Assembly: GCF_041886205.1 (NCBI RefSeq) | Contig: NZ_CP169029.1 | DNA from: Escherichia coli | GTDB taxonomy: Bacteria > Pseudomonadota > Gammaproteobacteria > Enterobacterales > Enterobacteriaceae | Reading direction: 5' to 3' (one strand) | Length of the DNA: 64,000 nt | Shown here: piece after piece, positions 1 to 53,280 of the stretch | How positions within the stretch are numbered: the stretch's first letter is position 1 | Layout: the number at the start of each line of letters is the position of its first letter | Made by a program: the position numbers and the translations under genes | The notes under the pieces: generated by a model | Databases searched by the model: none | What the model was told of the DNA's origin: nothing | Seen by the model: only the letters and a program-made list of their open reading frames with translations

Positions 1-3000
1 CTCTTCAGCCAGCATACCCTTCACCGAACAGACGACCGTACCCAGATCAACACCGGTTTGGGCTGGCGTCATTTCACCCCCAGCTGGATGTCAGGCATCA
101 ACCTGTTTTTTGACCACGACCTGAGCCGCTATCACTCCCGCGCGGGGCTTGGCGCAGAATACTGGCGTGATTATCTCAAGTTAAGCAGCAACGCTTATAT
201 CGGCCTGACCGGCTGGCGTAGCGCACCAGAATTGGATAATGACTTCGAAGCCCGCCCGGCCAACGGTTGGGATTTACGCGCGGAAGGCTGGTTACCTGCC
301 TGGCCACAACTGGGTGGAAAACTGGTCTATGAACAATACTACGGCGATGAAGTGGCGCTGTTTGACAAGAATGATCGCCAAAGTAATCCCCATGCTATTA
401 CCGCGGGCCTCAACTATACCCCCTTCCCGCTTCTGACTCTCAGTGCGGAACAGCGTCAGGGGAAACAAGGTGAAAATGACACACGTTTTGCCGTTGATCT
501 GACCTGGCAACCCAGCAGTTCAATGCAGAAACAGCTTAACCCGGACGAAGTGGCCGGACGGCGCAGTCTGGTCGGTAGTCGTTATGACCTGATTGATCGC
601 AACAACAACATCGTTCTGGAATACCGCAAGAAAGAGCTGATTCGCCTGAGTCTGCTGGATCCGGTGAAAGGGAAGTCTGGAGAAATAAAACCGCTGGTTT
701 CCTCGCTACAGACCAAATATGCCCTGAAAGGCTATAACATCGAAGCCGCTGCGCTGGAAGCTGCCGGAGGTAAAGTCAGCACTTCTGGAAAAGATATCAC
801 GGTCACGCTGCCAGGTTACCGCTTCACTAACACCCCAGAAACCGATAATACATGGTCGATAGACGTTACCGCCGAGGATGTAAAAGGTAACCTGTCACAT
901 CATGAACAAAGCATGGTAGTCATTCAGGCTCCGACATTAAGCCAGAAAGATTCTCTGTTATCCGTTAATCCGCTAACCGTGGCTGCAGATAAAAAATCGA
1001 CGACCACATTGACCGTTACTGCACACGATTCCGACGGAACCCCGGTGCCGGGGCTTGCGCTGCAAACCCGCAGTGAAGGCGTTCAGGACATCACCCTGTC
1101 TGACTGGACAGATAACGGTGATGGTAGTTACACACAGATGCTGACCGCCGGAACGACATCAGGTTCAGTAACACTGACGCCGCAAATTAACGGTGAGAGT
1201 GCGGTAAAAGAATCTATCGTCGTTAATATCGTCCCTGTTGTCTCATCCCGCGACCATTCATCAATAACAATTGATAACGTATCGTATTATGCCGGAGACG
1301 ACATCAAGGTTAGGGTGGAGCTGAAAGACGATAGCAATCAACCGGTTGCATATCAAAAAGAGGAATTGGTAAAAGCCGTTACTGTCGAAAACAGCAAACC
1401 TGGAGCCACGATTGTCTGGCACGAAGAGCTGCCGGGGGTTTATACCGCGAATTATCCGGCCCATAAGCAAGGGACAGCACTAAGGGCACAACTTAGCCTT
1501 CACAACTGGAATGCTCCACTGCAATCGCATATTTATAACATTGAGGCAAACCAGAATAAGGCTCGCGTCGCCACATTATCAGCGACGAATAATGACGTTT
1601 ACGCTGATAAAAAGACATTTAATACCCTCACTATCAACGTCACTGATGAGAGTGATAATCCCCTGACAAATCATCAGGTCACCTTTAAGAATGAAAAAGG
1701 AAGCGCGGAATTTGTCGAACCGCCGCAGCAAAATACGGATGCATATGGTGTTGCCACAATCAACATGGTAAGTCAGGTTGCGGAAGAAAATACGATTAGC
1801 GCCACGCTGCCAAATGGTTTCTCACAACGGATAATTGCGAAATTTGTTAGCGATTCGAGTACGCCAAAATTCAAACAACTGGTTGCCGATCCAGATACCA
1901 TTATTGCTGGCAACAGCCAGGGCAGCACTCTGACCGCCACCGTCACAGACTTTCATAACAACCCATTAAAAGATATGAAAGTGAATTTTGTGGCACCTGG
2001 TGGCTCGCAACTGGACAACACGACCGCCACAACAGACCAGTACGGTATTGTGCGGGTGCATCTGACCAGTTCAAAAGCTGGTAGCTATTCCGTAGATGCC
2101 TCGCTTGAGGCGGATAAAAATATTCACCAGTCGGTCACGATCACCGTGGTCCCAAACAGGGAACAATCGGTAATGACCTTGAATGCCGGGTCGGGCAGTG
2201 CGGTCGCTAACAATACAAATACCGTTACCCTGACTGCCAGTGTGAAAGATGTTTATGGACACCCATTGCCGGATGAGGATGTGAAATTTACCTTGCCAGC
2301 CTCCATGACCGGGAACTTCACGCTAAGTAGTGAAACCGCCCGCACCGATGCAAACGGCGATGCCATGGTCACATTGCGAGGCACAAAAGCGGGTGAGTTT
2401 ACAGTTACGGCGACGCTGACAAGAAATAATACCATTGCTCATCAGCAAGTTTCTTTTATTGGGGATACAAACAGTGCGCAGCTCCAGCCGCTGACTGCCT
2501 CATTAAATACCATTGTTGCGGGTAACAGTACGGGGAGTACCCTGACGGCAACGATCCTGGACGCTTACCAAAATCCGCTTAAAGACCAGCTGGTCACTTT
2601 CCAGAGTAACGATGTCACTCTAAGCGGAACAGAAGTCACCACCAATACGCTGGGTCAGGCGACGGTAACAATGACCAGCAATATTGCCGGACAACATAAC
2701 GTCGTGGTGAGCCGGAAAGCACAAGCCTCCGATAATAAAACGTTTAGTTTATCAGTGCTCCCGGATGAAAGTTCGGCGAAGGTAATAAGTATAACCGGAG
2801 CCGAAAAAACGATAACGGTTGGCGAAAACATCACGCTACGGATACTCGTCCAGGACGCGTTTAACAATGTAATAGCGGGTCAACGTGTCAGATTAAGTGC
2901 GCAGCCAACAGCTCACATTACGATAGGCGATACGGCTTACACCGATAATAACGGTTATGCGTACGTTCACCTTATTAGCACCCAGTCTGGGGTTTATCAG

Positions 3001-4578
3001 GTGACGGCAACGCTGGACAATAACAGTAGTAGTAAGGTTGACGTGAATGTGGCAAATGGCAAACTCGAGTTAACATCATCGAAGCCAGAAACCACGGTCC
3101 ATAACAGTGAGGGTATTACGCTTACCGCAACGGCGAGAAATGCGCGGGATGAATTGATGCCTGGGCAAATTATCACCTTTAGCGTAACGCCTGAAGGTGC
3201 AACGCTAAGCAATACAGGGGAAGTCCTTACTGACCAGTCTGGTCAGGCCAAAGTGACGCTGACCAGTGACAAAGTGAATGTCTATACCGTTACGGCCACA
3301 ATGGGCAAAGATGTTCCCGTTCAGAGCCAGGTAACGGTTGCGGTTAAGGCAGATGCTAAAACGGCACATGTTGTAAGCGTCGTGGCCTCTCCTGACACCA
3401 TAACCGCCGACGGCGTTGATAGCAGCACCGTCACGTCACGAGTAGAAGATGATTACGGATTCCCGGTTGAAGGTGTCGATGTTAGTTATGCCTTAGACAC
3501 CAAAGGTCGCCCGGTTGTTAATATTCCAACTACGCGTACCGATCAATCCGGGCAAGTCACGGCGACAATAACCAGTACATTGGCAGAAACCTTAACAGTC
3601 AATGTGCAAGTTCCTGGTACAGCCAACCAATCCGCAGCTATTACCTTGATTGCCGGCACGGCGGATGAAAGTAAGTCAATTTTGAAATCCGACGTTGGCA
3701 CTCTGATGGCTGACTACCAGCATAGCGCGAAACTTACGCTAACATTGCAAGACAAGTACGGTAACCCGATAGTGACGTCTGATCATCTGGAATTTGTCCA
3801 GTCAGGTCCCTTCGTGAACTTTCTCAAGTTGAGCGATATTGATTACAGCCAAAGAAATTATGGCGAGTACACCGTGACTGTCACTGGCGGAAAAGAGGGA
3901 ACAGCGACTCTCATTCCCATGCTGAACGGGGTTCATCAGGCAAACTTAAGCGTATCGCTGAATCTCATCCGCTCGATAAAAGAAATGTCCGGTCATGTCA
4001 CTGCAAACAACCATACCTTCTCCACGGCTAAATTCCCGAGCGAAGGTTTTGCAGGAGCGTATTACACACTCAACAATGATAACTTTGAAGCGGGTAAAAC
4101 CGTTGATGATTATATGTTTTCAAGTTCACAGAGTTGGGTGTCTGTCGATGCGTCAGGTAAGGTTTCTTTCACAAATATCGGCGATCAAACGTCAGTCACA
4201 ATAAGCGCTGTTCCCCGACAAGGAGGTACAACCTACCAGACCTTAATTAAGCTGAAAGGCTGGTGGGTGAATAATGGAAATCAAACCAATATCTGGCTAA
4301 CTGCCAATGCGCTCTGTCATGCGAAAAATGATGGATATACTCTTCCTGGCATCACACATTTGACGTCTGGCGAAAACAAACGCACGCAGGGATCGCTATA
4401 TGGTGAATGGGGGAACGTTGCAGCGTTTTCCAGTAATTCGCCATTTACACCAGGTGCTTACTGGACAAATGAATCTGATGATTACAATAGGCACTACTAT
4501 GTGCAGATGCTAACGGGTATGACCGGAAGCGACGCTGATTCCAGCCCCCAACTGACCGCCTGCCGTAAATCACTTTAA
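1..4578 (+). CDS. Inverse autotransporter adhesin (intimin/invasin family), 5-prime partial: end of beta-barrel, about 9-10 Big_1 Ig-like repeats, Cys-containing C-terminal domain
   Basis: Frame is open from base 1 (no stop before the listed TTG at 58). N-terminal stretch AEYWRDYLK...ERPANGWDLR...KLVYEQYYGDEVALF resembles the intimin/invasin barrel end; recurring about 100-aa units with motifs such as STLTATVTD..NPL..V.F; stop at 4576-4578. Confidence 0.8.
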   Translation, partial: LFSQHTLHRTDDRTQINTGLGWRHFTPSWMSGINLFFDHDLSRYHSRAGLGAEYWRDYLKLSSNAYIGLTGWRSAPELDNDFEARPANGWDLRAEGWLPAWPQLGGKLVYEQYYGDEVALFDKNDRQSNPHAITAGLNYTPFPLLTLSAEQRQGKQGENDTRFAVDLTWQPSSSMQKQLNPDEVAGRRSLVGSRYDLIDRNNNIVLEYRKKELIRLSLLDPVKGKSGEIKPLVSSLQTKYALKGYNIEAAALEAAGGKVSTSGKDITVTLPGYRFTNTPETDNTWSIDVTAEDVKGNLSHHEQSMVVIQAPTLSQKDSLLSVNPLTVAADKKSTTTLTVTAHDSDGTPVPGLALQTRSEGVQDITLSDWTDNGDGSYTQMLTAGTTSGSVTLTPQINGESAVKESIVVNIVPVVSSRDHSSITIDNVSYYAGDDIKVRVELKDDSNQPVAYQKEELVKAVTVENSKPGATIVWHEELPGVYTANYPAHKQGTALRAQLSLHNWNAPLQSHIYNIEANQNKARVATLSATNNDVYADKKTFNTLTINVTDESDNPLTNHQVTFKNEKGSAEFVEPPQQNTDAYGVATINMVSQVAEENTISATLPNGFSQRIIAKFVSDSSTPKFKQLVADPDTIIAGNSQGSTLTATVTDFHNNPLKDMKVNFVAPGGSQLDNTTATTDQYGIVRVHLTSSKAGSYSVDASLEADKNIHQSVTITVVPNREQSVMTLNAGSGSAVANNTNTVTLTASVKDVYGHPLPDEDVKFTLPASMTGNFTLSSETARTDANGDAMVTLRGTKAGEFTVTATLTRNNTIAHQQVSFIGDTNSAQLQPLTASLNTIVAGNSTGSTLTATILDAYQNPLKDQLVTFQSNDVTLSGTEVTTNTLGQATVTMTSNIAGQHNVVVSRKAQASDNKTFSLSVLPDESSAKVISITGAEKTITVGENITLRILVQDAFNNVIAGQRVRLSAQPTAHITIGDTAYTDNNGYAYVHLISTQSGVYQVTATLDNNSSSKVDVNVANGKLELTSSKPETTVHNSEGITLTATARNARDELMPGQIITFSVTPEGATLSNTGEVLTDQSGQAKVTLTSDKVNVYTVTATMGKDVPVQSQVTVAVKADAKTAHVVSVVASPDTITADGVDSSTVTSRVEDDYGFPVEGVDVSYALDTKGRPVVNIPTTRTDQSGQVTATITSTLAETLTVNVQVPGTANQSAAITLIAGTADESKSILKSDVGTLMADYQHSAKLTLTLQDKYGNPIVTSDHLEFVQSGPFVNFLKLSDIDYSQRNYGEYTVTVTGGKEGTATLIPMLNGVHQANLSVSLNLIRSIKEMSGHVTANNHTFSTAKFPSEGFAGAYYTLNNDNFEAGKTVDDYMFSSSQSWVSVDASGKVSFTNIGDQTSVTISAVPRQGGTTYQTLIKLKGWWVNNGNQTNIWLTANALCHAKNDGYTLPGITHLTSGENKRTQGSLYGEWGNVAAFSSNSPFTPGAYWTNESDDYNRHYYVQMLTGMTGSDADSSPQLTACRKSL

Positions 4579-4649
4579 TTTCTGCAGTTGTTATTAAAGG
4601 ATACCCTTGTGCGAGGGTATCCTTTCCGACTGATAACAAACGCTACATT

Positions 4650-4708
4650 GCCTAATGCGCTGCGCTTATCTGGCCTATATAATCCCTGCAATATATTGAA
4701 TTTATTGT
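4650..4708. repeat. REP-like palindromic element with conserved extension (second copy at about 40085-40142)
   Basis: gcgctgcgcttatctggcctat...cctgcaatatattgaatttattg closely matches gcgctacgcttatcaggcctac...cctgcaatttattgaatttgttg downstream of ridA. Confidence 0.6.
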
Positions 4709-5286
4709 TTTTGTGGCCCAGCCGACATGAACGGCCACTCAAGAAACTCAACAGCAACCGTTGATGTCAGCCAGACCCCGTTTTCCGCTTGCCAGAAAGG
4801 GATGCCTCGTTTCGCCATTTCCTGTGCTTTGACGGTTAAGATAACCGGCGATCCGTGTCTTGCTCCCACTTTGCGTGCCGTTGCTTCATCAGCAGAGAGA
4901 TGTACGTAATGACGCTCCCCTGCAATCAGCCCCTGTTTTTTTATCTCGTCAAGGAAACGGCTTGCCGTACCGTGGTAGAGAAACTGTGGCGGTGTTTTTT
5001 CGGCAAAGGAAATGGCGACCTGCGAAGTCGAATGCCCCTGAACCGCGCGGATGCACCTACCATCACTGGAATAACTAAAACGCTTTTTATCGCTGGTGGC
5101 AACCACAGTATCCAGCAATGCACGGGTTAACCGCTTGCCCGCTTTTTGGGCACAGAGTATAAGCTTATCGATATCCGCCCATCCTTCACGGTCAAGTACG
5201 ATACCAATCGCCTCCGGTTTGTGTCGGAGGACAAAACTTAAAAACTTGCTCGTATCCGCCAGCTCTTTTTCGTTGTACTTTGCCAT
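4702..5286 (-). CDS. kptA: RNA 2'-phosphotransferase KptA (Tpt1 family)
   Basis: Translation [28 protein letters not shown]...[16 protein letters not shown] matches the KptA/Tpt1 family; start chosen at internal Met of the 228-aa ORF. Confidence 0.85.
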
Positions 5287-11852: not shown

Positions 11853-13313
11853 TTACAGCGCAGCCACACACTCGCGCGCACCGCGTTCGCACAGCTGCTG
11901 ATATGCCGCCGTCACCGCGCCAACAAAGTCCGCATTTTGCGGCAGATCATCGGCAAAAATACCGCTCAGGCCCAGCAACGCTTTCACGCGGTCTGCGCCC
12001 TGATTCTGCGCGTTGATCTTCTGGAACTCCGCCAGCATCGGGTCAACTACGTCAATGGCATTACCCTGCTCATCCACGCCCTGGGTGTAGCGCATCCAGC
12101 CAGCCACGCCCAGCGCCAGGTGACGCCAGCTGCCGCCGTTTTGCAGGTGCAGACGCACCGGATCCAGCAGACGCTGCGGTAACTTCTGGCTGCCGTCCAT
12201 CGCAATCTGCCAGGTACGGTGACGCAGAGACGGGTTGCTGAAACGCTCGATCAGCAGCGTCGCATAGGCGTTCAGGTCCGTACCTTCCGGCATCGACAGC
12301 GTTGGCGCTTGTTCCTGCATCATCAGGGCAAAGGCCGCTTTGCGATAATCCGGGTTAGTCATGGTGTCGGCAATAGTTTCATAGCCGCCGAGGTAACCGA
12401 GGTATGCCAGGAAAGAGTGGCTGCCGTTCAGCATACGCAGCTTCATCATTTCGAACGGCACAACGTCTGCAACGAACTGTGCGCCCACTTTATCCCAGTC
12501 CGGGCGACCATTAACGAAGTTATCTTCAATCACCCACTGACGGAACGGTTCGCAGGCAATGGCGCACGGGTCGTAAACACCCAGCTGGTCAGCAATTTCC
12601 TGTAAGGTTTCTGGCGTCGCCGCCGGAACGATGCGGTCAACCATGGTGCACGGGAAGGTGACGTTCTCTTCAATCCATGCCGCCAGCTGCGGATCGCGTG
12701 CCTGAGCCAGCCCAAGAACGGCAACCTTCGCCACATGACCGTTTTCTCGCACGTTGTCGCAGGACATCACCGTAAACGCTTTCAACCTTTTTTCACGACG
12801 CAGGCGCAACGCTTCTACGATGTAACCAATCGCGGACTTCGGCGCAGTCGGGTTTTCCAGATCGTGCTTGATCAGCGGGTTATTGAGATCCAGTTGACCG
12901 CTTGCCGCATCAGCGCAGTAGCCTTTTTCCGTGACCGTTAGAGAGACAATCGCCGTTTGCGGACGCGCCATCGCGTTGAGAATACCTTCGCAGCCATCGA
13001 TTTCCGGATGCAGCGCTTCTTTCATTGAACCGATAATTTTCAGCTCGGTGCTTTCTGCGCCTTTTTCCGCCACGGTGTACAGCAGTTGCTGTTTTTTCAG
13101 GTTTTCGATCAGCACGCGGTCGTTGCCTGGCATCAGGTTAACTTCGCAGATACCCCAGTCGCTGTCGGTGCTTTCCAGCAGGTGATGGGTATACAGCGCC
13201 TGGTGCGCGCGGTGAAACGCCCCGCAACCGAGATGCACAATGCGTGATTCCAGACGAGAATGATCCCATGACGGGCGGGCAACCGGCAGATTGCTGTCAA
13301 CAATAGTAGTCAT
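11853..13313 (-). CDS. uxuB: D-mannonate oxidoreductase (fructuronate reductase)
   Basis: 486 aa, mannitol-dehydrogenase-family protein with N-terminal Rossmann motif (VHLGCGAFHRAH); uxuAB operon context. Confidence 0.9.
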   Translation of the reverse strand: MTTIVDSNLPVARPSWDHSRLESRIVHLGCGAFHRAHQALYTHHLLESTDSDWGICEVNLMPGNDRVLIENLKKQQLLYTVAEKGAESTELKIIGSMKEALHPEIDGCEGILNAMARPQTAIVSLTVTEKGYCADAASGQLDLNNPLIKHDLENPTAPKSAIGYIVEALRLRREKRLKAFTVMSCDNVRENGHVAKVAVLGLAQARDPQLAAWIEENVTFPCTMVDRIVPAATPETLQEIADQLGVYDPCAIACEPFRQWVIEDNFVNGRPDWDKVGAQFVADVVPFEMMKLRMLNGSHSFLAYLGYLGGYETIADTMTNPDYRKAAFALMMQEQAPTLSMPEGTDLNAYATLLIERFSNPSLRHRTWQIAMDGSQKLPQRLLDPVRLHLQNGGSWRHLALGVAGWMRYTQGVDEQGNAIDVVDPMLAEFQKINAQNQGADRVKALLGLSGIFADDLPQNADFVGAVTAAYQQLCERGARECVAAL

Positions 13314-13393
13314 CGTAAACTCCAGAATCCGTCTTCAGAGAGTGACGGCAAGGAAGAAGGAACCGGCACGGCGCGCAGCCATGCCGGTGGATA

Positions 13394-14578
13394 TTAACGG
13401 CTAAAGAAAGCGCGCTGGATCGCCAGTTCGACACCGCGAACTTCGGCCAGGCCTTTCAGACGACCAATTGCGGAGTAACCTGGGTTGGTTTTCTTCTTCA
13501 GGTCGTCCAGCATCTGATGACCGTGGTCCGGACGCATCGGGATCAGGTCTTCTTTGCCTTCCGCTTTACGACGGTGTTCTTCTTCAACAATCGCTTTCAC
13601 CACTTCGTACATATCAACGTCACCGTTCAGGTGCGCCGCTTCGTGGAAGGTTTTGGGGTTATCTTCACGCATGGTGGAGCGCAGATGGGTGAAGTAAATG
13701 CGCGGACCAAACTGCTTGATCATATCAACCAGATCGTTGTCAGCACGCACGCCGTAGGAACCGGTGCACATGGTGAAACCGTTCGCCATGCTGTTTACGG
13801 TATCAACCATCCACTGCATATCTTCAATGGTGGAAACAATGCGCGGCAGGCCGAGGATCGGGCGCGGCGGATCGTCCGGGTGAACAGCCATACGCACGCC
13901 AACTTCTTCGGCAACCGGAATAATCGCTTTCAGGAAGACCGCAAAGTTTTCGCGCAGTTTGGCTTTGTCGATATCTTTGTACAGCTCCAGGTGTTTACGG
14001 AACTGGTCGAGGGTGTAGCCTTCTTCCGCGCCCGGAAGACCAGCAATGATGTTACGGGTCAGACGCGCTTTGTCTTCGTCGCTCATAGTGGCGAAGCGAA
14101 CAGCAGCCTGAGCAATTTCTTCTTCGGCGTAATCCGCTTCCGCGCCTGGACGTTTCAGGATATGCATTTCGAATGCAGCGAATTCGATCTGGTCGAAGCG
14201 CAGCGCTTTGGAGCCGTCTGGCAGCACGTATTCGAGGTCAGTACGGGTCCAGTCGAGCACCGGCATGAAGTTGTAGCACACGGTGCGAATGCCGCACTGC
14301 GCCAGGTTGCGCAGAGTCTGCTGATAGTTAGCGATCCACTGCTCATAGTTGCCAGTGTGGGTTTTGATATCTTCGTGAATTGGTACGCTTTCTACGACAG
14401 ACCACACCAGGCCTGCGTCTTCAACGATCGCCTTGCGTTTGAGGATCTCTTCTACGGACCATACTTCGCCGTTCGGGATATGGTGCAGCGCGGTAACCAC
14501 GCCAGTTGCGCCCGCCTGACGGACATCAGCTAAAGAAACCGGATCGTTTGGGCCGTACCAGCGCCAGGTCTGTTCCAT
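13394..14578 (-). CDS. uxuA: Mannonate dehydratase
   Basis: Translation from [23 protein letters not shown]... (394 aa) matches UxuA; start chosen at internal Met of the 406-aa ORF. Confidence 0.9.
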
Positions 14579-14740
14579 GATTTTTCCTCTTTCACATAGT
14601 GGGTTCCACAGCAAAGAGACGCGGAACCCTGGAGTTGTTTAGGTATCCGGATGAACAACCAGACCGCAGCCGTGGCGTTGCATCGGATGAGATGGCGTAT
14701 AAGTTCTACCTTTTGGTAAGACATGTCAACCCGAATTCTG

Positions 14741-14864
14741 AAATTGGTTAACCACATCACAAGAAATCAACTCTATTGCTGGTTGATGCAAATGACAACA
14801 AAGGAGAAGCGGCGGTTAGTAATCGGGGGATGTGACATTCATCGCAATAATGGTTGACCAATTT
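14741..14864. promoter_or_regulatory. uxuAB control region with two UxuR/ExuR-operator-like palindromes
   Basis: aaattggttaaccacat (14741-14757) and tggttgaccaattt (14851-14864), near-palindromes around TGGTTAACCA, upstream of uxuA. Confidence 0.55.
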
Positions 14865-14972
14865 ACATAACGTGTCGCCCAAAATAACAATGGATTAACC
14901 TACTCCCCCATTGCATAAGTTGTGACCGACACAACAAAACTGATGTTGTTGCAAAGATTGCTATTTAGTTTT

Positions 14973-14987
14973 GGTATAAAAGGTATA
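14973..14987. promoter_or_regulatory. NanR-operator-like GGTATA direct repeats upstream of nanM
   Basis: ggtataaaaggtata about 50 bp upstream of the nanM start; NanR is known to bind GGTATA repeats. Confidence 0.45.
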
Positions 14988-15036
14988 CAGGCACATGGTG
15001 CGACATTTGAATTCCAGCGATCAGGAGTAATTCACA

Positions 15037-16143
15037 ATGAATAAAACAATAACGGCGCTTGCTATCATGATGGCTTCATTTGCCGCAAACGCGTCTGTAT
15101 TACCGGAAACTCCTGTGCCATTTAAAAGTGGTACCGGAGCAATTGATAACGACACTGTCTACATTGGTTTAGGTAGCACAGGTACGGCATGGTACAAGCT
15201 GGATACACAGGCCAAAGATAAAAAATGGACAGCGTTAGCTGCATTCCCTGGCGGACCAAGAGATCAAGCAACCTCGGCATTTATTGATGGCAATCTGTAT
15301 GTGTTTGGCGGCATTGGCAAAAACAGCGAGGGCTTGACTCAGGTATTTAATGACGTACACAAATACAACCCCAAAACCAATAGTTGGGTTAAATTGATGT
15401 CGCACGCACCGATGGGCATGGCGGGTCATGTAACTTTTGTACACAACGGCAAGGCTTATGTTACTGGCGGTGTTAACCAGAATATCTTCAATGGCTATTT
15501 TGAAGATCTCAACGAGGCTGGAAAAGATTCAACCGCTGTAGATAAAATCAACGCTCACTATTTTGACAAAAAAGCAGAAGATTATTTCTTCAATAAGTTT
15601 CTGTTGTCTTTTGATCCCTCAACACAGCAATGGAGTTACGCTGGCGAATCCCCCTGGTACGGAACGGCTGGTGCGGCGGTTGTGAATAAAGGTGATAAAG
15701 CCTGGCTTATTAATGGCGAAGCCAAACCAGGATTGCGAACGGATGCCGTATTTGAACTTGATTTCACCGGTAATAATTTAAAATGGAATAAGCTTGCTCC
15801 CGTCTCATCACCAGATGGCGTCGCTGGCGGTTTTGCGGGGATAAGCAATGATTCTCTTATATTTGCCGGAGGGGCCGGATTCAAAGGTTCACGAGAAAAT
15901 TACCAGAACGGTAAGAACTATGCGCATGAAGGCCTGAAAAAATCATATAGCGCTGATGTTCATCTTTGGCATAACGGGAAATGGGATAAATCGGGCGAAT
16001 TGTCGCAAGGTCGGGCCTACGGAGTATCATTGCCCTGGAATAATAGTTTATTAATTATTGGCGGTGAAACTGCAGGCGGCAAAGCGGTGACGGATTCAGT
16101 TTTGATCTCTGTGAAGGATAATAAAGTCACAGTACAAAACTAA
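15037..16143 (+). CDS. nanM: N-acetylneuraminate epimerase (Kelch-repeat sialic acid mutarotase), signal peptide present
   Basis: 368 aa with N-terminal signal peptide (MNKTITALAIMMASFAANA) and repeated Kelch-like GG motifs; RBS aggag. Confidence 0.85.
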   Translation: MNKTITALAIMMASFAANASVLPETPVPFKSGTGAIDNDTVYIGLGSTGTAWYKLDTQAKDKKWTALAAFPGGPRDQATSAFIDGNLYVFGGIGKNSEGLTQVFNDVHKYNPKTNSWVKLMSHAPMGMAGHVTFVHNGKAYVTGGVNQNIFNGYFEDLNEAGKDSTAVDKINAHYFDKKAEDYFFNKFLLSFDPSTQQWSYAGESPWYGTAGAAVVNKGDKAWLINGEAKPGLRTDAVFELDFTGNNLKWNKLAPVSSPDGVAGGFAGISNDSLIFAGGAGFKGSRENYQNGKNYAHEGLKKSYSADVHLWHNGKWDKSGELSQGRAYGVSLPWNNSLLIIGGETAGGKAVTDSVLISVKDNKVTVQN

Positions 16144-16207
16144 CGCTTCAGGGCCCCAGTAAAGGGGCCCTGCTATCAATTTATCATATCAATTACGCGA
16201 AAATTAT

Positions 16208-17188
16208 ATGGACGCAATAATATCGCCCGATTATTACTATGTTCTTACCGTTGCTGGTCAGTCTAATGCCATGGCGTATGGCGAAGGACTGCCATTACCG
16301 GACAGGGAAGATGCGCCTCATCCCAGAATTAAACAATTAGCAAGATTTGCGCATACGCATCCCGGAGGCCCGTCATGTCACTTTAACGACATTATTCCAC
16401 TGACTCACTGCCCACACGATGTTCAGGATATGCAGGGTTATCACCATCCTCTGGCAACGAATCATCAAACACAGTACGGCACCGTTGGCCAGGCACTGCA
16501 TATTGCACGGAAATTACTGCCCTTCATTCCTGATAATGCAGGGGTTCTCATCGTTCCATGTTGTCGTGGCGGCTCGGCTTTTATCGCAGGCAGCGAAGGG
16601 ACATATTCAGAACGGCACGGAGCCAGCCATGATGCTTGTCGTTGGGGAACGGATACTCCGCTATACCAGGATTTAGTCAGCAGAACGCGAGCCGCACTGG
16701 CAAAAAATCCGCAGAACAAATTCCTCGGCGTATGCTGGATGCAAGGCGAATTTGACTTAATGACCTGTGACTACTCGTCACACCCTCAACACTTTAATCA
16801 TATGGTTGAAGCCTTTCGTAGGGATCTAAAACAATACCATTCTCAGCTTAATAAAATTACTGACGCGCCGTGGTTTTGCGGCGATACCACCTGGTACTGG
16901 AAAGAAAATTTCCCTCATGCGTATGAAGCTATTTATGGCAATTATCAAAATAATGTTTTAGCTAATATTATTTTCGTCGACTTCCAGCAACAAGGTGAAA
17001 GAGGACTGACGAACGCGCCTGATGAAGACCCGGACGATTTAATCATGGGATATTACGGTTCAGCGTACCGGTCACCGGAGAACTGGACGACGGCACTGCG
17101 AAGCAGTCATTTCAGCGCGGCAGCCCGTCGGGGGATTATTTCTGACAGGTTTGTAGAAGCAATTTTGCAGTTTTGGCGCGAAAGGTGA
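16208..17188 (+). CDS. nanS: 9-O-acetyl-N-acetylneuraminate esterase (SGNH/DUF303 family)
   Basis: 326 aa beginning ...YVLTVAGQSNAMAYGEG (GQSN catalytic-serine motif); directly downstream of nanM. Confidence 0.8.
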   Translation: MDAIISPDYYYVLTVAGQSNAMAYGEGLPLPDREDAPHPRIKQLARFAHTHPGGPSCHFNDIIPLTHCPHDVQDMQGYHHPLATNHQTQYGTVGQALHIARKLLPFIPDNAGVLIVPCCRGGSAFIAGSEGTYSERHGASHDACRWGTDTPLYQDLVSRTRAALAKNPQNKFLGVCWMQGEFDLMTCDYSSHPQHFNHMVEAFRRDLKQYHSQLNKITDAPWFCGDTTWYWKENFPHAYEAIYGNYQNNVLANIIFVDFQQQGERGLTNAPDEDPDDLIMGYYGSAYRSPENWTTALRSSHFSAAARRGIISDRFVEAILQFWRER

Positions 17189-17195
17189 GCGTTCA

Positions 17196-17846
17196 TTAAT
17201 TTGATTTATTCGCATCCATTAGCGCTTTTAACTGCTCCGGCGTAAACGGTGGTTTGCGTCGGTGCAGCATCGCATGGCAATTAGGGCACACAGGAAGCAA
17301 ATCATTAACTGGATCCAGCTGGTAATCCTCTTTAATGGCTGAAAGCGGCACCAGGTGATGCACATGGATAAAGCCTTCAGCGATATCACCATAGATCTTC
17401 ACCAGATCAACGCCGCATACGTTGCATTGGCATCCATGATGTTCGACCGCTTTATCTCGGGCCTTTTTATCGCGTTCATAGCGGTTTACTGTCACCTTTA
17501 TCGCCGCACCTTCAACGTAGGTCCCCTGCGACGGCAGCTCATCCGGGAACAGAACGTCGGCTATGGGAGCCGCAGCGGCTTTATCCTGATGAATATGAAA
17601 TCCCTGCTCTATGAGTAGCTTGACACATTTAGATTTTATTCCGCCGGTGAAATCCGCAGGGGTAAATTGCGTCCCCGTCATCAATGTCGCTGCGATGCCA
17701 GCAATCGCCTTCGAGGGGTAACGTCGGCCATGATATTCAATTTCATACAACCGTGCAGGCTGGAACTGATGAGTTTCTCCCGCATCCCATAAATGAATAG
17801 CTTCGATGATATACCGCCGCGGAAGATGATCGGGGAGTTTATTCAT
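17196..17846 (-). CDS. HNH endonuclease, McrA-like (candidate modification-dependent restriction/defence nuclease)
   Basis: 216 aa; C-terminal HNH/zinc-finger signature CQCNVCG...HVHHLVPLS...NDLLPVCPNCH; N-terminal roughly 120-aa domain of unknown type; convergent with nanS, next to IS1. Confidence 0.7.
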   Translation of the reverse strand: MNKLPDHLPRRYIIEAIHLWDAGETHQFQPARLYEIEYHGRRYPSKAIAGIAATLMTGTQFTPADFTGGIKSKCVKLLIEQGFHIHQDKAAAAPIADVLFPDELPSQGTYVEGAAIKVTVNRYERDKKARDKAVEHHGCQCNVCGVDLVKIYGDIAEGFIHVHHLVPLSAIKEDYQLDPVNDLLPVCPNCHAMLHRRKPPFTPEQLKALMDANKSN

Positions 17847-17992
17847 AGAGAATGTCCTTATACGTTCTCAGAACAAGCAGCAAAAAAACAAATGAGATCA
17901 AAGTAATATATCTTCACTTGCAGGCTTGAACAGCAGAAAATTTGCGAGCATGATCGCAATTATTTCACTGCCAGGGAGGTAATGACTCCAAC

Positions 17993-18496
17993 TTATTGAT
18001 AGTGTTTTATGTTCAGATAATGCCCGATGACTTTGTCATGCAGCTCCACCGATTTTGAGAACGACAGCGACTTCCGTCCCAGCCGTGCCAGGTGCTGTCT
18101 CAGATTCAGGTTATGCCGCTCAATTCGCTGCGTATATCGCTTGCTGATTACGTGCAGCTTTCCCTTCAGGCGGGATTCATACAGCGGCCAGCCATCCGTC
18201 ATCCATATCACCACGTCAAAGGGTGACAGCAGGCTCATAAGACGCCCCAGCGTCGCCATAGTGCGTTCACCGAATACGTGCGCAACAACCGTCTTCCGGA
18301 GCCTGTCATACGCGTAAAACAGCCAGCGCTGGCGCGATTTAGCCCCGACATAGCCCCACTGTTCGTCCATTTCCGCGCAGACGATGACGTCACTGCCCGG
18401 CTGTATGCGCGAGGTTACCGACTGCGGCCTGAGTTTTTTAAATGGCGGAAAATCGTGTTGAGGCCAACGCCCATAATGCGGGCGGTTGCCCGGCAT
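17993..18496 (-). CDS. insB: IS1 transposase InsB reading frame (expressed as InsAB' by -1 frameshift)
   Basis: 167-aa [19 protein letters not shown]...DGWPLYE... overlapping the insA 3-prime end in the -1 frame, as in IS1. Confidence 0.9.
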
Positions 18497-18690
18497 CCAA
18501 CGCCATTCATGGCCATATCAATGATTTTCTGGTGCGTACCGGGTTGAGAAGCGGTGTAAGTGAACTGCAGTTGCCATGTTTTACGGCAGTGAGAGCAGAG
18601 ATAGCGCTGATGTCCGGCGGTGCTTTTGCCGTTACGCACCACCCCGTCAGTAGCTGAACAGGAGGGACAGCTGATAGAAACAGAAGCCAC
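18415..18690 (-). CDS. insA: IS1 protein InsA
   Basis: 91-aa [46 protein letters not shown]..., the IS1 InsA zinc-finger protein. Confidence 0.95.
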
Positions 18691-18745
18691 TGGAGCACCT
18701 CAAAAACACCATCATACACTAAATCAGTAAGTTGGCAGCATCACC

Positions 18746-19281: not shown

Positions 19282-19366
19282 TGGTGCCGAAGGCCGGACT
19301 CGAACCGGCACGTATTTCTACGGTTGATTTTGAATCAACTGCGTCTACCGATTTCGCCACTTCGGC
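19282..19366 (-). tRNA. leuX: tRNA-Leu (CAA), leuX
   Basis: Reverse complement reads GCCGAAGTGGCGAAATCGGTAGACGCAGTTGATTCAAAATCAACCGTAGAAATACGTGCCGGTTCGAGTCCGGCCTTCGGCACCA with CAA anticodon loop and encoded CCA end. Confidence 0.95.
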
Positions 19367-24819: not shown

Positions 24820-26334
<1,515 letters not shown>

Positions 26335-26348
26335 TTGCGTCAGGCAAG

Positions 26349-26540
<192 letters not shown>

Positions 26541-53159: not shown

Positions 53160-53280
53160 GTTTGCCGGATGCGGTGCACCTGTAGGCCTGATAAGACGCA
53201 TCAAGCGTCGCATCAGGCACTATGCTCAAATGCCGGATGCGGCGTGAACGCCTTATCCGGCCTACGCACACTATATCAGG
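53160..53280. repeat. REP elements (BIME) between yjgA and mpl
   Basis: tgccggatgcggtgcacctgtaggcctgataagacgcatcaagcgtcgcatcaggc ... gccggatgcggcgtgaacgccttatccggcctac. Confidence 0.8.

What the first reader, a model, noticed from the sequence alone, without database searches (positions are those of the whole stretch)
1..4578. Large inverse-autotransporter adhesin (intimin/invasin-like) at the kptA locus
The window opens inside a gene of at least 1520 codons. Its translated sequence shows the end of an intimin/invasin-type outer-membrane barrel, then about nine or ten repeats of roughly 100 aa with Big_1-like motifs, and a distinct C-terminal domain of about 300 aa with several cysteines (the candidate receptor-binding tip). 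By my recollection, K-12 has the transporter gene yjiJ at this position next to kptA, so this looks like a strain-specific surface adhesin. The tip domain is the likely determinant of host or surface specificity.
Basis: partly seen in the sequence, partly recalled or inferred. Interest (0 to 1): 0.45.

Follow-up and report, generated by a model that had tools for sequence, protein, structure and literature searches.

The report
Known E. coli surface protein IatD

Summary
Frame 1 is open from base 1 to the stop at 4576-4578 (1,525 codons). It encodes the end of an inverse-autotransporter barrel, a D00 Ig domain, ten Big_1 repeats and a C-terminal cap. Two details need correcting: the cap is about 205 aa, not about 300, and it has two cysteines, not several.

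The gene is iatD. RefSeq annotates it as such in the near-identical strain ET201. The protein has no indels relative to IatD of strain SMS-3-5 and is 97.3% identical to it. Goh et al. 2019 cloned that protein, found it on the cell surface and showed that it drives biofilm when overexpressed. It sits at the same yjiJ-kptA site and occurs in 637 of 5,426 complete E. coli genomes.

A confident structure model (pLDDT 95.7) shows the cap is an invasin-type D4 Ig domain plus a D5 lectin-like domain. Invasin's two integrin-binding aspartates are not conserved, so the receptor remains unknown.

Two side observations:
- iatD is part of a roughly 10.5 kb alternative haplotype (espX6-like gene, yjiK', yjiJ', iatD). 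Its shared genes are only about 81% identical to K-12.
- This lineage has lost the fim operon.

Verdict: already known, low interest.

The parts
1..4578 (+). iatD coding sequence: codons 222-1746 plus the stop. The first 221 codons lie upstream of the window.
   Evidence: The frame is open. The match to RefSeq iatD of strain ET201 is reported as 100.0%; direct comparison finds one SNP inside iatD, at window nt 3272. The protein is 97.3% identical to SMS-3-5 IatD.
1..606 (+). C-terminal two thirds of the 12-stranded inverse-autotransporter beta-barrel and linker (full-length residues 222-423)
   Evidence: Pfam IAT_beta matches window residues 1-202, E 4e-87. In the full-length protein the domain spans 148-423. 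PDB matches are 4E1T and 4E1S. It is 86% identical to the K-12 YeeJ barrel.
607..951 (+). First passenger domain, at the D00 position next to the barrel (full-length 424-538)
   Evidence: It lies between the barrel and repeat 1 and is 84% identical to the equivalent YeeJ segment. The NCBIfam intimin model aligns through it, residues 152-530. The Ig fold is inferred and was not modelled here.
952..3960 (+). Ten Big_1 / Invasin_D3-type Ig-like repeats forming the stalk (full-length 539-1541)
   Evidence: Self-HMM domain table, 10 hits at 63-105 bits each. Pfam Big_1 and Invasin_D3. No tandem repeat at the DNA level.
3961..4257 (+). Invasin D4-like Ig domain (full-length about 1542-1640)
   Evidence: Pfam Invasin_D4 scores 26.8 bits at best (26.2 when the 330-aa query is scanned), just under the cutoff of 27. 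phmmer aligns it to invasin 1CWV. AF2 model plus Foldseek.
4258..4575 (+). C-type-lectin-like cap, invasin D5 type (full-length about 1641-1746). Its only two cysteines are at nt 4315-4317 (C1660) and 4561-4563 (C1742).
   Evidence: Alignment to invasin D5, with C1660 on invasin C907. Both cysteines are at least 90% conserved in the 64-sequence family alignment. The model has an alpha/beta fold. Top fold hits are invasin, intimin and InvE.
4597..4624 (.). 12-bp hairpin 19 nt after the iatD stop codon, in the convergent iatD/kptA spacer. It is a candidate transcript-end structure.
   Evidence: RNA fold of 4570-4710: -35.7 kcal/mol, z = -3.6, and 0 of 200 shuffles fold as well. The consensus terminator scan did not call it because there is no clear T-run.
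4579..4734 (.). Right-hand end of the haplotype-specific segment. Homology with K-12 resumes at about 4735, inside the last 11 codons of this strain's kptA (kptA is 4702-5286 on the minus strand).
   Evidence: K-12 versus ET201 blastn breakpoints. KptA is 184 aa in K-12 and 194 aa here.

Best explanation
Bases 1-4578 are the 3' 87% of iatD, the E. coli type Ve (inverse autotransporter) surface protein IatD, in an allele 97.3% identical to the characterised SMS-3-5 protein.

Mechanism, inferred from the family and supported by the anatomy seen here:
- A long Sec signal peptide exports the protein to the periplasm.
- A LysM-like segment stays in the periplasm.
- The BAM-inserted 12-stranded barrel anchors the protein in the outer membrane.
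- The C-terminal passenger is threaded out through the barrel. It folds domain by domain into a rod of 12 Ig-like domains (D00, ten Big_1 repeats, D4), an estimated 45-50 nm long.
- The rod presents a disulfide-stabilised lectin-fold cap (D5) beyond the LPS layer.

Shown by others for the SMS-3-5 orthologue: surface exposure, and strong biofilm formation when overexpressed in K-12, with no binding to extracellular-matrix proteins and no autoaggregation.

Inferred: the D4-D5 tip binds a ligand that is still unknown. That ligand is probably not beta1-integrin, because invasin's two key aspartates are not conserved.
For: Identity:
- RefSeq calls the gene iatD in ET201 and in about 637 genomes.
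- The protein has no indels and 47 of 1,746 differences relative to SMS-3-5 IatD, at the same yjiJ-kptA site.
- The 90%-identity cluster has 1,685 members; all 15 listed are from E. coli.

Anatomy:
- IAT_beta, Big_1 and Invasin_D3 by Pfam.
- The barrel matches 4E1T and 4E1S.
- Ten repeats.
- The tip aligns to invasin 1CWV domains D3-D5 at E 3e-15.
- The AF2 model has pLDDT 95.7 and pTM 0.87. Its best fold hits are invasin (E 1.5e-19, TM 0.62), intimin and InvE.

Selection: dN/dS is 0.18 overall, 0.09 in the barrel and 0.29-0.56 in D5. The gene is maintained and the tip is its least constrained part.

Function: PMC6714894 and the review table in PMC7312957.
Against: - The window lacks the first 221 codons. 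The window strain is not ET201 itself (63 mismatches in 13261-17977 and different island content), so an intact 5' end is inferred.
- No significant promoter signal was found upstream. Native expression of iatD has never been shown.
- iatD is frameshifted in O157:H7 strain 86-24 and interrupted by an IS in some other strains, so the gene is dispensable in some lineages.
- The LysM match is weak (Pfam E 0.13).
- The biofilm phenotype comes from overexpression only.
Confidence: 0.93

Rival explanations
1. The gene is a silent or decaying relic in this strain. It would be either broken in the unseen 5' end or never expressed, so it contributes nothing to the surface.
For: iatD is frameshifted near its 5' end in O157:H7 strain 86-24 and IS-interrupted in strains PT62, LP5-1 and ETEC6335. 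No convincing promoter was found: 2 sites against 1.4 expected. Goh et al. did not report native IatD expression.
Against: The 1,525 codons are open. The nearest relative, ET201, has an intact 1,746-aa gene. dN/dS of 0.18 across three alleles indicates continuing purifying selection.
Confidence: 0.12
2. It is a functional analogue of Yersinia invasin: the D4-D5 tip binds beta1-integrins and promotes uptake into host cells.
For: The tip is closest in sequence and fold to invasin D3-D5. The cysteine pair is conserved.
Against: In the alignment, invasin D911 falls on Asn1664 (an Asp follows it at 1665) and D811 falls on Ala1564. That these two aspartates are needed for integrin binding is from my own knowledge of the invasin literature. 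Tip identity to invasin is only 24%. Goh et al. found no binding to extracellular-matrix proteins. Integrin binding itself was not tested.
Confidence: 0.05
3. It is a new, uncharacterised strain-specific adhesin distinct from the catalogued E. coli inverse autotransporters. This is the novelty implied by the first reader.
For: No curated NCBIfam model reaches its cutoff. The allele is 2.2-3% different in DNA from every other genome except ET201.
Against: It has the same length, the same locus and 97.3% identity to the named and cloned IatD, and RefSeq names it iatD. The divergence is mostly synonymous and spread evenly along the gene.
Confidence: 0.02

Closest known systems
IatD of E. coli SMS-3-5 (EcSMS35_4876; Goh et al. 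2019, mSphere, PMC6714894)
   Same: Same gene. Both are 1,746 aa with no indels between them, 97.3% identical, at the same yjiJ-kptA position and with the same domain order. Goh et al. already predicted the LysM, barrel, Big_1 repeats and C-type-lectin cap.
   Different: There are 47 amino-acid substitutions spread along the protein, 8 of them in the 106-aa D5 cap. This allele is otherwise seen only in ET201.
YeeJ of E. coli K-12 (b1978), a characterised inverse-autotransporter adhesin
   Same: A paralogue with nearly the same translocator: N-terminus 62.5% identical, barrel 86%, D00 84%. The overall plan is also the same, with a Big_1 stalk and a lectin-like cap.
   Different: The passenger differs: repeats are 33-37% identical and the tip 45%. 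YeeJ is 2,339 aa as annotated in the K-12 record against 1,746 aa for IatD, and it sits at a different locus, next to asnT.
Invasin (InvA) of Yersinia pseudotuberculosis, PDB 1CWV and 4E1T
   Same: Best sequence and fold match for the tip (E 3e-15; Foldseek E 1.5e-19, TM 0.62) and for the barrel (E 1.6e-81). The D4 Ig plus D5 lectin-like arrangement and the cysteine pair are shared.
   Different: Tip identity is 24%. The integrin-binding D911 and D811 align to Asn and Ala. IatD has ten stalk repeats, whereas invasin has three Ig domains before D4; that figure for invasin is from my own knowledge.
Intimin (Eae) of EPEC/EHEC, PDB 1F00 and 4E1S
   Same: Same type Ve architecture. It is the second-best fold hit for the tip (E 5.8e-13), and the barrel matches at E 4.2e-67.
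   Different: The NCBIfam intimin model scores 359 bits against a cutoff of 1,400. Tip identity is 16%. No LEE or tir context appears in the window.

Membership tests
IatD (orthologue of EcSMS35_4876) | High full-length identity to the reference protein, with no indels | tested here: met
   1,746 aa in both, no indels, 47 differences, 97.3% identity. Goh et al. reported more than 98% identity among their seven genomes, so this allele is slightly outside that range.
IatD (orthologue of EcSMS35_4876) | Conserved chromosomal position between yjiJ and kptA | tested here: met
   The order yjiJ-iatD-kptA is seen in ET201, SMS-3-5, MFDS1022581 and O157:H7 86-24. The window shows iatD followed by kptA, yjiH and yjiG.
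IatD (orthologue of EcSMS35_4876) | Surface display and biofilm promotion | not testable with these tools
   Shown experimentally only for the SMS-3-5 allele overexpressed in K-12 (PMC6714894).
Inverse autotransporter (type Ve secretion) | IAT beta-barrel placed N-terminal to the passenger | tested here: met
   Pfam IAT_beta at 148-423 of the full-length protein, E 6.5e-109. PDB 4E1T and 4E1S.
Inverse autotransporter (type Ve secretion) | C-terminal passenger built of Ig-like (Big_1) repeats | tested here: met
   Ten repeats.
Inverse autotransporter (type Ve secretion) | N-terminal Sec signal peptide | tested here: inconclusive
   No signal-peptide predictor was available. By eye, ET201 residues 23-45 (KIRRLTAGVCLFTQIFFPVMATA, then QN) have a basic n-region, a hydrophobic core and an AxA-like site. 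This part lies outside the window.
Inverse autotransporter (type Ve secretion) | Periplasmic LysM domain (present in the large members) | tested here: inconclusive
   Pfam LysM reaches only E 0.13 and 12.7 bits against a cutoff of 20.9. The segment is 62.5% identical to the YeeJ N-terminus. It lies outside the window.
Invasin-type D4-D5 tip | Ig-like D4 packed against a C-type-lectin-like D5 with a conserved cysteine pair | tested here: met
   phmmer to 1CWV at E 3e-15. AF2 pLDDT 95.7. Foldseek to 1CWV at E 1.5e-19. C1660 and C1742 are conserved in at least 90% of 64 homologues. The disulfide itself is inferred.
Invasin (integrin-binding function) | Asp911 and Asp811 equivalents | tested here: not met
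   In the alignment D911 falls on N1664 and D811 on A1564. The alignment is pairwise at 24% identity, and an Asp sits at 1665, so a one-residue shift cannot be excluded.
Intimin | NCBIfam intimin_all equivalog score of at least 1,400 bits | tested here: not met
   359 bits.
IatC / SinH / YchO-YchP | The curated NCBIfam cutoff for each model | tested here: not met
   IatC N-terminal model 1,126 bits against 2,400. SinH 305 against 999. YchO/P 266 against 508.

The most novel reading that the evidence does not exclude
iatD may not be a simple insertion. It may be one gene of an ancient alternative haplotype of about 10.5 kb: an AT-rich espX6-like pentapeptide-repeat gene, yjiK', yjiJ' and iatD.
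- The shared genes yjiK and yjiJ are only about 81% identical to the K-12 versions, while the flanks are about 98% identical.
- All parts are found in essentially the same ~12% of E. coli genomes: 635 to 637 of 5,426.
- No close relative of the passenger was found in any of 100,044 species-representative genomes.

If the block is kept together by selection as a co-adapted module, or if the IatD tip recognises a new receptor class, that would be new biology.
Probability: 0.12. Interest if true: 0.4.

Novelty: already known. Interest (0 to 1): 0.1.

Why it matters
It matters little as a discovery. The gene is named, annotated by RefSeq, present in hundreds of sequenced genomes, and has basic functional data.

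The useful residue is modest:
- A high-confidence model shows that the IatD cap is an invasin-type D4-D5 module lacking invasin's integrin-binding aspartates. This narrows the search for its receptor, which is still unknown.
- iatD is tightly linked to divergent yjiK/yjiJ alleles and an espX6-like gene.
- This lineage lacks type 1 fimbriae, which makes it a clean natural background for testing what IatD contributes to attachment.

Tried and rejected
- The word-index protein search with the 230-aa tip returned only two fragments and was not useful. The exhaustive HMMER search replaced it.
- Two scans of species-representative genomes for IatD outside E. coli found nothing: a degenerate DNA pattern for YYAGDDIKV and a protein scan with the passenger. 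The origin of the haplotype is therefore unresolved. Both scans need exact short peptide matches, so relatives below about 80% identity could have been missed.
- The promoter scan of the yjiJ-iatD spacer was not above chance.
- The terminator scan found nothing after iatD, although folding shows a strong hairpin.
- There are no tandem DNA repeats in the gene and no Rfam family within 1-4578.
- Base composition does not mark iatD as foreign: it is 45-53% GC, against 33-37% for the neighbouring pentapeptide-repeat gene.
- The Pfam Intimin_C and LysM matches were too weak to use.
- A hypervariable tip under diversifying selection was considered and rejected. D5 has the highest dN/dS (0.29-0.56), but it stays below 1 and rests on small counts.
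- A plasmid origin was considered. The tip's plasmid-collection hits are mislabelled chromosomes or distant Enterobacter, Yersinia and Pantoea proteins.
Full report
**Observation**

Frame 1 of the + strand is open from base 1 to a TAA at 4576-4578, giving 1,525 codons. The other two frames are full of stops.

Pfam finds three things in the translation:
- the C-terminal 200 residues of an inverse-autotransporter beta-domain (IAT_beta, E 4e-87)
- eight Big_1 stretches
- nine Invasin_D3 stretches

A repeat HMM built from the protein itself finds ten repeats of 85-95 aa, at full-length residues 539-1541. Only about 205 residues follow the last repeat, not about 300. The fragment contains exactly two cysteines, not several.

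**Identity**

Megablast against 5,426 complete E. coli genomes reports the first 6.5 kb as 100.0% identical to strain ET201, where the gene is annotated iatD. Direct comparison finds one SNP within iatD.

The ET201 record supplies the missing 5' end. The full gene is 5,241 bp, or 1,746 aa, and lies between yjiJ and the convergent kptA. The window is not ET201 itself:
- It has 7 SNPs in the first 14.5 kb.
- Identity is lower further on, and the island content differs.

Goh et al. 2019 (PMC6714894) named iatD (EcSMS35_4876) in strain SMS-3-5 and cloned it. They showed with antiserum that the protein is on the cell surface. They also showed that it drives biofilm formation when overexpressed in K-12. 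They saw no binding to extracellular-matrix proteins and no autoaggregation. They predicted LysM, barrel, Big_1 repeats and a C-type-lectin cap.

I fetched the SMS-3-5 locus. The two proteins have no indels between them and differ at 47 of 1,746 positions, which is 97.3% identity. A literature search found nothing on IatD beyond that paper and one review table.

**Anatomy**

Running N to C in the full-length protein:
- **Signal peptide:** a long signal-peptide-like N-terminus. This was judged by eye only and lies outside the window.
- **LysM:** a LysM-like segment. Pfam is weak at E 0.13, but the segment is 62.5% identical to the YeeJ N-terminus.
- **Barrel:** IAT_beta at 148-423. It matches the solved invasin and intimin beta-domains at E 1.6e-81 and 4.2e-67.
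- **D00:** a domain at 424-538 in the D00 position, next to the barrel.
- **Stalk:** ten Big_1 repeats at 539-1541.
- **Tip:** the last 205 residues.

The last 330 residues align end to end with domains D3-D5 of Yersinia invasin (PDB 1CWV, E 3e-15). Cys1660 falls on invasin Cys907.

I collected tip homologues with an exhaustive HMMER search, which found 267 representative clusters at E <= 1e-3. I aligned 64 of them and predicted the structure of repeat 10 plus the tip. The model has mean pLDDT 95.7 and pTM 0.87.

Foldseek against the PDB ranks the hits as follows:

| Rank | Structure | E-value | Note |
|---|---|---|---|
| 1 | Invasin 1CWV | 1.5e-19 | TM 0.62, 24% identity |
| 2 | Intimin 1F00 | 5.8e-13 | |
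| 3 | InvE 5N40 | 8e-12 | |

The tip is therefore an invasin-type D4 Ig domain plus a D5 C-type-lectin-like cap. This confirms the InterPro-based prediction of Goh et al. with an independent method.

In the alignment, invasin Asp911 falls on Asn1664 and Asp811 on Ala1564. From my own knowledge of the invasin literature, those two aspartates are needed for beta1-integrin binding. An invasin-like receptor is thus unlikely, though an Asp at 1665 leaves some room for doubt.

**How it probably works**

The steps, inferred from the type Ve family, are:
1. Sec exports the protein to the periplasm.
2. BAM inserts the barrel into the outer membrane.
3. The C-terminal passenger is exported through the barrel.
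4. The 12 Ig-like domains fold one after another into a rod that carries the cap away from the cell surface.

Surface exposure and biofilm promotion were shown for the orthologue. The ligand of the cap is unknown.

Nei-Gojobori estimates across three alleles give dN/dS of 0.18 overall, about 0.09 for the barrel and 0.29-0.56 for D5. The gene is under purifying selection, and the cap is its least constrained part. The counts for D5 are small.

**Relatives**

None of the curated NCBIfam models reaches its cutoff:

| Model | Score (bits) | Cutoff (bits) |
|---|---|---|
| IatC N-terminal | 1,126 | 2,400 |
| Intimin | 359 | 1,400 |
| SinH | 305 | 999 |
| YchO/P | 266 | 508 |

The closest characterised paralogue is YeeJ. 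Its barrel is 86% identical and its D00 84%, but its repeats are 33-37% identical and its tip 45%.

The 90%-identity IatD cluster has 1,685 members, and all 15 listed are from E. coli. Two scans of 100,044 species-representative genomes found no close relative of the passenger.

**Distribution and context**

iatD is present, with at least 80% coverage, in 637 of 5,426 genomes. It is frameshifted in O157:H7 strain 86-24 and IS-interrupted in a few strains. This likely helps explain why Goh et al. counted complete genes in only 6% of genomes.

K-12 lacks iatD. There the yjiJ and kptA stop codons are 12 bp apart.

Unexpectedly, the difference from K-12 is more than an insertion:
- yjiK and yjiJ are only 80.9% identical between K-12 and ET201, while the flanks are about 98% identical.
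- An AT-rich (33-37% GC) pentapeptide-repeat gene is present only in the iatD-bearing form. The right-hand breakpoint lies in the last 11 codons of kptA.
- The divergent yjiJ allele is in 636 genomes, the pentapeptide-repeat gene in 635 and iatD in 637. In O157:H7 the pentapeptide-repeat gene is annotated espX6.

The locus is therefore dimorphic: a block of about 10.5 kb in this strain against about 2.2 kb in K-12. Goh et al. do not mention this.

**Local signals**

No significant promoter was found upstream. A strong 12-bp hairpin lies 19 nt after the stop codon (z = -3.6). There are no tandem DNA repeats and no Rfam family within the gene.

**Verdict**

The object is the already named and partly characterised IatD. 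Novelty: already known. Interest: low (0.1). The haplotype structure and the fim-less background are minor side observations.

Noticed in passing
Upstream of the window; L001:2195-12734 (ET201) against K-12 L006. The right-hand breakpoint is at window ~4735.: iatD belongs to a dimorphic block. It comprises an AT-rich pentapeptide-repeat gene (annotated espX6 in O157:H7), yjiK' and yjiJ' that are only about 81% identical to K-12, and iatD. Each part is present in 635-637 of 5,426 genomes, while the flanks are about 98% identical. The breakpoint changes the KptA C-terminus: 194 aa here against 184 aa in K-12.
   Followed up: partly
window 14579-15036 (uxuA-nanM spacer): uxuA is followed directly by nanM and nanS. 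The gntP gene, the whole type 1 fimbrial (fim) operon and nanC are missing. This junction occurs in only 2 of 5,426 complete genomes, ET201 and 6EVA, which also carry the closest iatD alleles.
   Followed up: partly
window 17978-18745, next to the tRNA at 19285-19366: An IS1 copy sits where ET201 has a segment of about 10 kb (a degraded AbiEii toxin gene and a type I restriction-modification system with an IS3-disrupted hsdS). The window strain is therefore a relative of ET201, not ET201 itself. Identity to ET201 drops from 99.95% in the first 14.5 kb to 97.6-99.6% in most of the later collinear segments, with one short stretch (window 33767-34478) at 89.9%.
   Followed up: partly
L004:1738-6979 (O157:H7 strain 86-24): iatD is annotated as frameshifted: it is 5,242 bp, and the reading frame changes within the first ~66 codons. 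The adjacent kptA is frameshifted too. Whether this is shared by all O157:H7 was not checked.
   Followed up: no
L003:1739-6979 (strain MFDS1022581): A second, deeply divergent iatD allele class: 90.5% amino-acid identity and dS of about 0.25 relative to both the window and SMS-3-5 alleles, at the same locus and with the same length. Fifteen genomes fall in the 90-95% DNA identity band.
   Followed up: no
window 4649-4681: The iatD-kptA spacer contains a sequence (TGCCTAATGCGCTGCGCTTATCTGGCCTA) that looks like a REP element. This is from memory of the REP consensus and was not tested.
   Followed up: no
window 25381-25575 (-), 43022-43137 (-); 26409-26484, 53185-53262 and 59425-59503 (-): Rfam gathering-level hits elsewhere in the window: Ysr276 (174.7 bits), the mgtA Mg2+ riboswitch, and three naRNA4/REP-derived elements. 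All look ordinary for E. coli.
   Followed up: no
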